Of a stretch of 64,000 nucleotides of DNA, positions 36,040 to 37,239 are shown one piece after another; position 1 is the stretch's first letter; every line of letters begins with the position of its first letter. The DNA is from Eledone cirrhosa. Taxonomy: Eukaryota. Location of the stretch: assembly GCA_964016885.1 (NCBI GenBank), contig OZ024766.1, positions 22,196,001 to 22,260,000 on the forward strand, in the 5' to 3' direction. The notes under the pieces were generated by a model. It was not told the origin of the DNA. It did no database searches and saw only the letters and a list, made by a program, of their open reading frames with translations. The position numbers and the translations under genes are program-made.

Positions 36040-36212
36040 TATATATATATATACAGTATATATATACATATATATATGCAGAGGTTTATATTTAATTTAT
36101 TGTGATTCAACAAGCTTAAACAAGTTTATAACTGATATAAAGCACTCAACAGTTAAGTGGAGTAAATACACAATACATTAACAAATGGAAACTATATTTA
36201 TAAAACCACATT

Positions 36213-36278
36213 TATTCTATTATACATATTTCAAGGGCCACCAAGGCAAATTATGGTGCGCTTTCATCAGATAAAATA
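36213..36278 (-). ncRNA. Minimal type I hammerhead ribozyme motif (outer pair, left)
   Basis: tattttat CTGATGA aagcg-cacca-taatttgcct-tggtg-gccctt GAAA tatgta TA atagaata. Confidence 0.75.
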
Positions 36279-36331
36279 CAATACAGATTAGTTTTATAAA
36301 TCAATATTGACATACCCAGAATGGAGCTTCC

Positions 36332-36401
<70 letters not shown>

Positions 36402-36544
36402 TAAGTTGTTAAACAATATTGGGATAATTATGTCAAAGAATGAGTTTTACAGTAGATTGGAAGCACTCAACATTTAAAAAATAATTTTCTGTAGTCATTA
36501 ATATTAAAATATAAATATTAATAAAATAGATGTTCTTTAGATAA

Positions 36545-36607
36545 ATTACATTTTATTATACGTATTTCGGAGGTACAACAGTACGTCCTCATCAGACAAA
36601 ATATAAT
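36545..36607 (-). ncRNA. Minimal type I hammerhead ribozyme motif (inner pair, left)
   Basis: attatattttgt CTGATGA ggacgtac-tgtt-gtacctcc GAAA tacgta TA ataaaatgtaat. 12-pair stem I (two G-U), 7 of 8 pairs in stem II, palindromic stem III ATACGTAT. Confidence 0.85.
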
Positions 36608-36694
36608 GGTACATGACATACCCTGAGATGTTAAATGGTTAAGATTAAATCTTAACCATTTAACATCTCATCTCAGGGTATGTCATGTATCATT

Positions 36695-36751
36695 ATATTT
36701 TGTCTGATGAGGACGTACTGTTGTACATCCGAAATACGTATAATAAAATGT
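36695..36751 (+). ncRNA. Minimal type I hammerhead ribozyme motif (inner pair, right)
   Basis: CTGATGA at 36704-36710, stem II ggacgtac/gtacatcc, GAAA at 36731-36734. Predicted cleavage after 36742 (AUA); 9-pair stem I. Confidence 0.85.
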
Positions 36752-36789
36752 TATTGATCTAAAGAACATCTATTTTATTAATACTTATA

Positions 36790-36872
<83 letters not shown>

Positions 36873-36889
36873 TGAAGTTGGAAATAGCA

Positions 36890-36928
<39 letters not shown>

Positions 36929-37012
36929 CCCCACTATAGGGGAGCTTCCAACAGAAATGGTTGCATTCTTTAAGGGTATGTCAATATTTATTTATAAAAC
37001 TAATCTGTATTG

Positions 37013-37078
37013 TATTTTATCTGATGAAAGCGCACCATAATTTGCCTTGTTGGCCCTTGAAATATGTATAATAGAATA
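37013..37078 (+). ncRNA. Minimal type I hammerhead ribozyme motif (outer pair, right)
   Basis: CTGATGA at 37021-37027, GAAA at 37059-37062, 8-pair stem I; inverted copy of 36213-36278. Confidence 0.72.
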
Positions 37079-37239
37079 AATGTGGTTTTATAAATATAGT
37101 TTATAGTTTCCATTTGTTAATATCGCATATATATATATATATATATATGCTTACACATAAATATATGTGTAAGCATTTAGCATTTACATATATATATATA
37201 TATGTAAATGATTACACAGAAACACCTGTATGTAGATCT

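What the first reader, a model, noticed from the sequence alone, without database searches (positions are those of the whole stretch)
36110..37120. Nested palindrome carrying four hammerhead ribozymes
Seen: an inner inverted repeat (about 36500-36800, centred near 36648) has one hammerhead per arm (36545-36607 minus, 36695-36751 plus). It is enclosed by an outer inverted pair of a different sequence family (36213-36278 minus, 37013-37078 plus). All four keep CTGATGA, GAAA, an AUA site, an 8-12 pair stem I and a tiny palindromic or near-palindromic stem III (ATACGTAT, ATATGTAT). Established: minimal type I hammerheads with palindromic stem III occur in Penelope-like element termini and retrozymes and cleave as dimers. 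Inference: a transcript of either strand would contain two hammerheads about 320-330 nt apart. These could excise a unit-length RNA, or be silenced by the long dsRNA.
Basis: partly seen in the sequence, partly recalled or inferred. Interest (0 to 1): 0.82.

Follow-up and report, generated by a model that had tools for sequence, protein, structure and literature searches.

The report
Nested Penelope-element stumps with hammerheads
Four hammerhead-ribozyme motifs sit in two nested mirror-image repeats that are likely the leftover ends of two Penelope-like retrotransposon insertions, one inside the other, in DNA crowded with such stumps; RNA read across them is predicted to fold into long hairpins that would keep the ribozymes silent.

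Summary
Observation confirmed to the base: four minimal type I hammerheads, none in 2,000 shuffles, with covariation in stems II and III across window copies. They do not look like one four-ribozyme device. Each inverted pair is a head-to-head foldback of a short element whose one arm carries an 87-98 nt 3' tail and whose other arm stops short in (TA)n, the published anatomy of Penelope-like (PLE) insertions. Ten such foldbacks lie in this 64 kb window. Reads show the inner family is high-copy and dispersed, continues 5' of this centre, and forms inverted joints at other points. A 10-bp direct repeat brackets the DNA that splits the outer foldback. Read-through RNA is predicted to bury all four ribozymes in dsRNA; the inner and outer motifs could cross-pair to excise 328/336 nt, but that fold is not robustly predicted and no RNA data were available. 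No RT/GIY-YIG ORF could be linked, so PLE membership rests on anatomy. This scan reported similar palindromic PLE stumps in another genome (e1-7858806). New details: long tails and a tail hairpin shared across families.

The parts
36077..36322 (-). Outer foldback, long (tailed) arm: 5'-truncated element end, 3' end pointing outward into (TA)n
   Evidence: 85% similar to the solo copy at 12843-13019 over 183 nt
36077..36176 (-). 3' tail present only on the left outer arm (87 nt longer than the right arm, measured to the TA runs)
36141..36163 (-). Conserved tail hairpin ACTC-[short stem-loop]-GAGTGC, just beyond the short-end position
   Evidence: role as a priming or protein-binding signal is inferred
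36213..36278 (-). Minimal type I hammerhead (outer left); predicted cut 3' of 36221; stem III ATATGTAT
36323..36332 (+). 10-bp direct repeat GGAGCTTCCA, copy 1 (candidate target-site duplication)
   Evidence: only two copies in the window; 8 of 20,000 shuffles reach 10 nt
36333..36400 (.). (TA)n run flanking the inner element's long end
36401..36646 (-). Inner foldback, long (tailed) arm; tail 36401-36500 (98 nt longer than the right arm)
   Evidence: family reads show a frequent end at 36501 into (TA)n
36545..36607 (-). Minimal type I hammerhead (inner left); predicted cut 3' of 36557; stem III ATACGTAT
   Evidence: core without listed variants in reads
36647..36647 (.). Centre of the inner palindrome (one base); the family continues 5' beyond this point, so both arms are truncated here
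   Evidence: 160 X9 reads and an X5 contig run on beyond 36646
36648..36795 (+). Inner foldback, short arm ending in (TA)n
36695..36751 (+). Minimal type I hammerhead (inner right); predicted cut 3' of 36742
36796..36940 (.). Filler: (TA)n(GA)n, about 27 nt of unique sequence, (TG)n(TA)n, 13 nt; no other copy in the window
36941..36950 (+). 10-bp direct repeat GGAGCTTCCA, copy 2
36951..37127 (+). Outer foldback, short arm (extends further 5' than the left arm), ending in (TA)n
37013..37078 (+). Minimal type I hammerhead (outer right); predicted cut 3' of 37070
36676..36685 (+). GGGTATGTCA motif upstream of all four hammerheads (also 36974+, 36623-, 36317-); resembles a 5' splice donor (recalled consensus, untested)

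Best explanation
The locus holds two head-to-head foldbacks, each carrying two hammerheads, that are likely 5'-truncated stumps of Penelope-like retrotransposons, and the inner one likely came to lie at the centre of the outer one by a later insertion. Shown: each foldback has one arm with an 87-98 nt 3' tail and one arm that stops short in (TA)n; the inner family is dispersed, extends 5' of this centre, and forms inverted joints at other points in other copies. Inferred mechanism: a PLE protein nicks both strands of a (TA)n target and starts two cDNAs on one RNA, at two sites that flank the tail (one just before a conserved hairpin, one about 90 nt further 3'). Both cDNAs stop shortly upstream of the hammerhead and are joined at their truncated ends, so each insertion is born as a palindrome with two outward-facing ribozymes. 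The outer foldback (left arm, 22-nt asymmetric centre, right arm) was later split by a 608-bp microsatellite-rich insertion with a 10-bp duplication, and the inner foldback came in with that filler or landed in its (TA)n. The hammerheads are passengers of the element end, kept intact by selection on the parent family, where they would act as dimers or with protein help. At this locus read-through RNA would form dsRNA of about 145 bp per arm pair that sequesters them, a likely substrate for editing or small-RNA pathways.
For: Tail on one arm only, short arm ending in TA: both foldbacks here and 8 more in the window; tail difference 80-98 nt in the 8 of 10 measured cleanly (census). Reads laid on 36400-36650: 1,202 contigs (X1) and 2,019 reads (X9); 77% of X9 reads run on into unlike DNA; 144 reads, 19 X1 contigs and 1 X5 contig end at 36501 into (TA)n; 160 reads continue 5' of 36646; 4 opposite-strand joints at other points, 3 of them readable as head-to-head from their side lengths. 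Both inner arms share two letters against the family majority (36539: 195 of 197 reads differ; 36562: 587 of 604), as expected if both were copied from one template. Published PLE anatomy matches: inverted 5'-truncated copy, tail at one end, (TA)n targets (PMC8557442 passages); head-to-head palindromes, 8-10 bp duplications, one PLE inserted in another (PMC3846280); dual minimal hammerheads 100-700 bp apart on opposite strands (PMC4209133); both strands cut and extended, two RT start sites defining the tail, hammerhead not needed for insertion in vitro (PMC11167929). 10-bp direct repeat: 8 of 20,000 shuffles. Inner hairpin -202.7 kcal/mol, z -33.9; hammerhead folds cost 76-104 kcal/mol on the whole locus.
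Against: No RT or GIY-YIG ORF is linked: 0 such hits among 98 window ORFs scanned against Pfam, no genome held, 0 matches in three collection scans. Tails are 80-98 nt, not the 30-40 bp reported. Inner arms differ by 5 substitutions in 146 aligned bases and outer arms by 2 in 144 (Fisher p 0.45), which does not support the inner being younger. Both outer arms have (TA)n near both ends, which also fits the outer pair landing around older DNA. The filler has no recognisable element identity. The outer family was not checked in reads.
Confidence: 0.62

Rival explanations
1. Same PLE origin, reverse order: the inner foldback and filler were there first, and one later insertion placed its two cDNAs in the (TA)n runs on either side, leaving the host DNA between them; the 10-bp repeat came from a brief jump between the two cDNAs.
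For: Each outer arm has (TA)n at its outer end and at or within 13 nt of its inner end. Solo arms joined to (TA)n on both sides exist in the window (12843-13050, 21000-21165). Inner arms are, if anything, more diverged (5 of 146 vs 2 of 144, p 0.45). Capture of host DNA between pLTRs is published (PMC3846280).
Against: Removing the filler and one repeat copy leaves an ordinary asymmetric centre like that of the 20.7 kb foldback. None of the other 9 foldbacks has host (TA)n at its centre. It needs an extra template jump to explain the 10-bp repeat.
Confidence: 0.22
2. A working self-processing unit: a transcript starting near the centre uses the inner and outer hammerheads as a cross-paired double hammerhead, releasing a 328-nt (+) or 336-nt (-) RNA that is circularised like a non-LTR retrozyme monomer.
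For: Cross stem III of 8 bp and cross stems I of 8-12 bp. Sizes fall in the 170-400 nt retrozyme range (PMC7229834 passages). In the fragment 36206-36612 (-) the minimum-energy fold already forms one cross core.
Against: That fold vanishes when the 3' end is extended by 16 nt; cross-pair probabilities are 0.01 or less in 15 of 15 fragments. Any transcript that includes the opposite arm loses the hammerhead. The unit is not tandem and its spacer has no other copy in the window. The outer motif is equally cross-compatible with the 12989 and 20660/20793 families, so compatibility follows from kinship. Minimal PLE hammerheads cleave poorly even as dimers.
Confidence: 0.05
3. The palindromes are not PLE stumps but another kind of short mobile unit (MITE-like foldbacks or dispersed retrozyme monomers) that happens to carry hammerheads.
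For: No PLE ORF was linked; Rfam hammerhead models do not hit.
Against: Centres differ between copies of one family (9.6, 11.9, 13.2, 25.7 and 39.3 kb; four other joints), and the family extends beyond the centre, so the mirror half is made at each insertion. The two ends are unequal (tail), unlike terminal inverted repeats. Retrozymes are head-to-tail arrays.
Confidence: 0.08
4. Assembly or amplification artefact (foldback chimeras).
For: No read or contig spanning the whole locus was examined; only 36400-36650 was laid.
Against: Arms differ by 2-5 substitutions plus indels, each arm with its own departures from the family majority. The short end falls at the same family position in independent runs.
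Confidence: 0.03

Closest known systems
EN+ Penelope-like element insertions with inverted pLTR and tail (Arkhipova et al. 2013, PMC3846280; Craig et al. 2021, PMC8557442)
   Same: Head-to-head inverted 5'-truncated copies, palindromic junction, tail at one end only, (TA)n targets, 8-10 bp duplications, one PLE inserted within another.
   Different: Here only the hammerhead-bearing end is left (no ORF); tails are 80-98 nt against 30-40 bp; ten foldbacks in 64 kb; the nest puts hammerheads of two families in tandem on each strand.
Minimal type I hammerheads of metazoan PLEs (Cervera and de la Pena 2014, PMC4209133)
   Same: Intact core, palindromic positions 15.2-16.2 and loop 3, dispersed families, pairs 100-700 bp apart on opposite strands, predicted dimer action.
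   Different: Stem I is longer (8-12 bp, A-U rich, against 4-5 bp in Schistosoma); the outer family starts stem II with A-U rather than G10.1-C11.1 unless an extra base after A9 is assumed; four motifs are nested.
Poseidon PAc of Anolis (Frangieh et al. 2024, PMC11167929)
   Same: Two preferred 3' ends flanking a tail, AT-rich targets, hammerhead some tens of bases upstream of the ends.
   Different: No ORF start linked to the hammerhead here; longer tail with a hairpin shared among families; nothing tested in vitro.
Non-LTR retrozymes (Cervera and de la Pena 2020, PMC7229834; Li et al. 2026, 10.64898/2026.07.22.740005)
   Same: Type I hammerheads about 330 nt apart on one strand, low GC.
   Different: The two hammerheads belong to different families, the unit is not repeated, its spacer is microsatellite filler, and each strand's pair is opposed by an antisense arm.

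Membership tests
Type I hammerhead (minimal, dimer-type) | CUGANGA and GAAA core, NUH site, stems I and II | tested here: met
   4 of 4 motifs; 0 in 2,000 shuffles
Type I hammerhead (minimal, dimer-type) | Covariation in the stems | tested here: met
   8 window copies: 98.3% of cells paired; 6 of 15 pairs changed on both sides (3 in stem II, 3 in stem III, 0 in stem I, where 4 pairs vary on one side only); 0-1 of 500 shuffles on four measures but 470 of 500 on further pair types; slid controls 37-58%. The copies are related, about four families.
Type I hammerhead (minimal, dimer-type) | Self-complementary stem III allowing a dimer | tested here: met
   8 of 8 pairs for each of the four motifs and for 12989, 20660, 20793 and 21100
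Type I hammerhead (minimal, dimer-type) | Match to an Rfam hammerhead model | tested here: not met
   none among 31 matches to E 10; minimal motifs needed a purpose-made descriptor in PMC4209133
Type I hammerhead (minimal, dimer-type) | Mg2+-dependent self-cleavage | not testable with these tools
   needs in vitro transcription
Penelope-like element (EN+) | ORF with telomerase-like RT and GIY-YIG endonuclease | tested here: inconclusive
   absent from the window (98 ORFs), as expected for stumps; no genome or collection copy was available to extend the family
Penelope-like element (EN+) | 5'-truncated copies with adjacent inverted copy, head to head | tested here: met
   family continues 5' of the centre and shows other joints
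Penelope-like element (EN+) | 3' tail at one end only | tested here: met
   10 of 10 foldbacks; 80-98 nt in the 8 measured by script, longer than the published 30-40 bp
Penelope-like element (EN+) | Hammerhead in the terminal repeat near the 3' end | tested here: met
   cut sites lie about 50-57 nt inside the short ends
Penelope-like element (EN+) | Insertion into (TA)n or AT-rich targets | tested here: met
   both outer ends of both foldbacks; 144 reads end in (TA)n
Penelope-like element (EN+) | Direct (tandem) pLTR flanking an ORF | not testable with these tools
   no full-length copy available
Non-LTR retrozyme | Head-to-tail tandem repeats of one 170-400 nt unit, a hammerhead in each | tested here: not met
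   same-strand neighbours are of different families and the spacer is single-copy in the window
Non-LTR retrozyme | Abundant linear and circular monomer RNA | not testable with these tools
   no RNA run could be laid
MITE / foldback DNA transposon | Fixed symmetric termini; the palindrome moves as a unit | tested here: not met
   unequal ends and copy-specific centres

The most novel reading that the evidence does not exclude
Nesting of PLE stumps is a birthplace of retrozymes: it puts hammerheads of two families 328 and 336 nt apart on the same strand, their stems cross-pair into a heterodimeric double hammerhead, and a transcript started at the palindrome centre releases a chimeric RNA circle that PLE proteins could mobilise. 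The minus-strand unit even carries the conserved tail motif that appears to mark where these elements start reverse transcription.
Probability: 0.05. Interest if true: 0.68.

Novelty: new member of a known kind. Interest (0 to 1): 0.27.

Why it matters
As it stands this is a clear example of known PLE insertion anatomy and a caution: four nested ribozymes can arise from two ordinary insertions. Its use is as material for an open question, how PLEs build inverted copies and tails. Several families here share two fixed 3' ends about 80-98 nt apart and a hairpin just beyond the short end, which gives a concrete RNA signal to mutate in an in vitro PLE assay. At ten foldbacks per 64 kb, such stumps would also be a large source of long dsRNA if transcribed. 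Only if the cross-family double hammerhead works in vivo would the locus show something new, a route from PLE ends to retrozyme circles.

Tried and rejected
Rfam scans: (region, E up to 10) gave no hammerhead; (window) showed 150 of 463 matches, nearly all miRNA-precursor models on microsatellite or hairpin DNA and all below gathering score. No genome is held. Pfam on 98 complexity-filtered ORFs of 55 aa or more: no RT or GIY-YIG, two hits below cut-off. Pattern scans: 0 matches in metagenome contigs and viral contigs. Sequencing runs: no RNA holder listed; X5 and X6 hold only 3 and 1 contigs, so nothing is claimed about organisms B and C. Read ends at 36544/36547 in X9 were rejected as cleavage evidence: it is a DNA RAD library and the family majority makes a GATC site there (restriction origin inferred). 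The cross-paired minimum-energy fold was rejected as support because it depends on the fragment end. Dating by arm divergence was not informative (p 0.45; some of the 4 outer gaps come from my chosen boundaries). In one search two of ten rows were mis-measured by the script (25.7 kb and 41.6 kb) and were read by eye at about 82 and 87 nt. The paper on dimer cleavage by PLE hammerheads (Lunse et al. 2017) is not held and is recalled only. Literature searches listed no paper on a four-hammerhead nested foldback or on a tail hairpin shared among PLE families; I saw listings and the passages named only, and no supplements were read. Earlier-finding look-ups gave nothing relevant. The host was not identified; an octopus-like genome is only my recalled impression from the microsatellite make-up.

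Full report
Observation. The window is microsatellite-rich DNA with 304 runs of six or more TA. A type I hammerhead descriptor finds the four motifs exactly as stated: 36213-36278 (-), 36545-36607 (-), 36695-36751 (+) and 37013-37078 (+), with AUA sites, stems I of 8, 12, 9 and 8 pairs and predicted cuts after 36221, 36557, 36742 and 37070. It finds none in 2,000 shuffles of the region, and none in 200 shuffles of the window against 7 real hits. The inner arms (36501-36798) are 93% alike and the outer arms (36177-36317 and 36974-37121) 94%. Rfam's models do not pick the motifs up, which I put down to their minimal stem III (inference).

The motifs look conserved as ribozymes at family level. 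Across eight window copies of about four families, 98.3% of stem cells pair and 6 of 15 pairs change on both sides, three in stem II and three in the palindromic stem III. Stem I varies on one side only, and one of five measures did not beat the shuffles. In reads of the inner family, none of the 40 listed differences (52 in all) falls in CUGAUGA, GAAA or the AUA site. Changes at 36549, 36562, 36569 and 36597 keep pairing.

Anatomy. Each pair is a head-to-head foldback with 3' ends pointing outward. The left arm of each runs on for 87 (outer) or 98 nt (inner) beyond the point where the right arm stops in (TA)n. The same build occurs ten times in the window, at 9.6, 11.9, 13.2, 20.7, 25.6, 25.7, 36.6 (twice), 39.3 and 41.6 kb, in several families, with tails of 80-98 nt in the eight measured cleanly. 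Copies of one family have different centres. A hairpin ACTC...GAGT(A/G) begins within a few bases of the short end in these families, with compensating inner stems in several copies; it is degenerate in the inner arm and at 11.9 kb.

Evidence from other copies. No genome is held and collection scans were blank, but DNA runs could be laid on the inner long arm. X1 gave 1,202 contigs and X9 2,019 reads, 77% of which run on into unlike DNA, so the family is abundant and dispersed. An end at 36501 followed by (TA)n appears in 144 reads, 19 X1 contigs and 1 X5 contig: the short end is a family feature. 160 reads continue beyond 36646, so both arms here are 5'-truncated. Four opposite-strand joints lie at other positions (3, 38, 6 and 3 reads, 2-5 starts each); three read as head-to-head from their side lengths. 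Both arms here share two letters against the family majority (36539, 36562), including the C that makes ATACGTAT a perfect palindrome, while each arm also has changes of its own. That fits two copies made from one template at insertion that then aged separately (inference).

What it is. These are the published marks of Penelope-like insertions: an inverted 5'-truncated copy, a tail at one end, and (TA)n targets (PMC8557442, passages; PMC8969392, passages); head-to-head palindromes, 8-10 bp duplications and a PLE inserted within a PLE (PMC3846280, passages and Discussion); pairs of minimal hammerheads 100-700 bp apart on opposite strands, tied to truncated PLEs (PMC4209133, parts 1-2 of 4). A purified PLE protein cuts and extends both strands, starts reverse transcription at two sites that define the tail, and does not need the hammerhead for insertion (PMC11167929, parts 1-2 of 4). 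The defining ORF could not be linked, so I file this as PLE-derived by anatomy (about 0.85 over both orders of events), not as a proven member of a named clade.

How the nest arose. A 10-bp direct repeat, present only twice in the window, brackets 608 bp of filler that contains the inner foldback (8 of 20,000 shuffles). Removing the filler leaves an outer centre like that of the 20.7 kb foldback, so I favour the outer element first and the insertion later. The reverse order remains open, because the outer arms lie next to (TA)n on both sides and arm divergence does not separate the two (5 of 146 vs 2 of 144, p 0.45). With a dozen or more such elements and 304 TA runs in 64 kb, and several elements lying side by side, no selection is needed to explain one nest (inference; not tested genome-wide).

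What RNA would do. The inner palindrome folds at -202.7 kcal/mol (z -33.9). On the whole locus any single hammerhead costs 76-104 kcal/mol and the double form about 238, so read-through RNA of either strand should be silent and double-stranded. But the double fold is 5.6-25 kcal/mol uphill in half-locus fragments, the one favourable case disappears with 16 more bases, and cross-pair probabilities are 0.01 or less in all 15 fragments. These energies ignore tertiary contacts and protein help, so they lower the idea without excluding it. The outer motif pairs equally well with two other window families, the unit is not repeated, and a start site near the centre would be needed.

Novelty. The kind is known. 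This scan described similar palindromic PLE stumps in another genome (e1-7858806); my reading was on record before I saw it, and it led me to PMC3846280. A 2026 preprint argues that retrozymes derive from PLE ends by local amplification (10.64898/2026.07.22.740005, part 1 of 5 and passages). Seven searches listed nothing on a four-hammerhead nest, on 80-98 nt tails or on a shared tail hairpin; no supplements were read. Passages of two cephalopod genome papers (PMC6962438; PMC13282606) confirm only that PLEs and hammerheads occur there; the host here was not identified. Verdict: real, largely explained, interest 0.27; the retrozyme-birth reading has about a 5% chance.

Noticed in passing
window 9544-9773, 11865-12059, 13095-13286, 25680-25802, 39198-39401, 39729-39817, 7886-7942: A family (mostly 96-98% alike, two copies about 88%) of tailed foldbacks that carries what looks like the 3' half of a hammerhead with a full stem III (GAAA, CGGCT/AGCCG, GUC) but is cut off within stem II; centres differ from copy to copy, one has an A-run/T-run centre.
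   Followed up: partly
window 41571-41776, with related pieces at 25851-25919 and 56880-56991: Foldback with two complete type I hammerheads right at its centre, with a real 3-bp-plus stem III and a GUA site; may cleave as a monomer; arms identical over 58 bases.
   Followed up: partly
window 20471-20893 and 21000-21165: Another two-hammerhead foldback (A-C mismatch at the base of stem II, 51-nt asymmetric centre) next to a solo copy of a further family with stem III AGGCGCTT; two minus-strand hammerheads about 440 nt apart, not stem III compatible.
   Followed up: partly
window 36141-36163, 12860-12882, 20531-20553, about 25530-25560, 41705-41727, 56952-56974, about 9700-9725: Tail hairpin ACTC...GAGT(A/G)C shared by at least four otherwise dissimilar families, starting within a few bases of the short 3' end; candidate protein-binding or RT-start signal.
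   Followed up: partly
window 36676, 36974, 36623, 36317, about 20745: GGTATGTC motif 26-47 nt upstream of the hammerhead core in three families; resembles a 5' splice donor (recalled consensus), of note because PLE ends often keep an intron.
   Followed up: no
window 39015-39060 (+) and 57047-57104 (-): Two further hammerhead-like cores with weak stem I (4-5 pairs); the 39023 one has a clean GGAC/GTCC stem II.
   Followed up: no
window 12843-13050: Solo tailed copy of the outer family (85% alike), flanked by (TA)n on both sides and lying next to the 13.2 kb foldback.
   Followed up: partly
window 58474-59968: Large inverted arrangement of roughly 100-bp tandem units (arms of about 360 nt, 90% alike).
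   Followed up: no
window 26302-27753: Regularly spaced identical-length open frames point to a tandem repeat with a 112-bp period.
   Followed up: no
window 9425-9502 and 61326-61396: Short palindromes without the tail motif; may be small DNA-transposon-like elements.
   Followed up: no
inner family reads at 36576 and 36433: A second subfamily with a longer stem II (352 reads) and a different tail end (308 reads) exists in organism A.
   Followed up: partly
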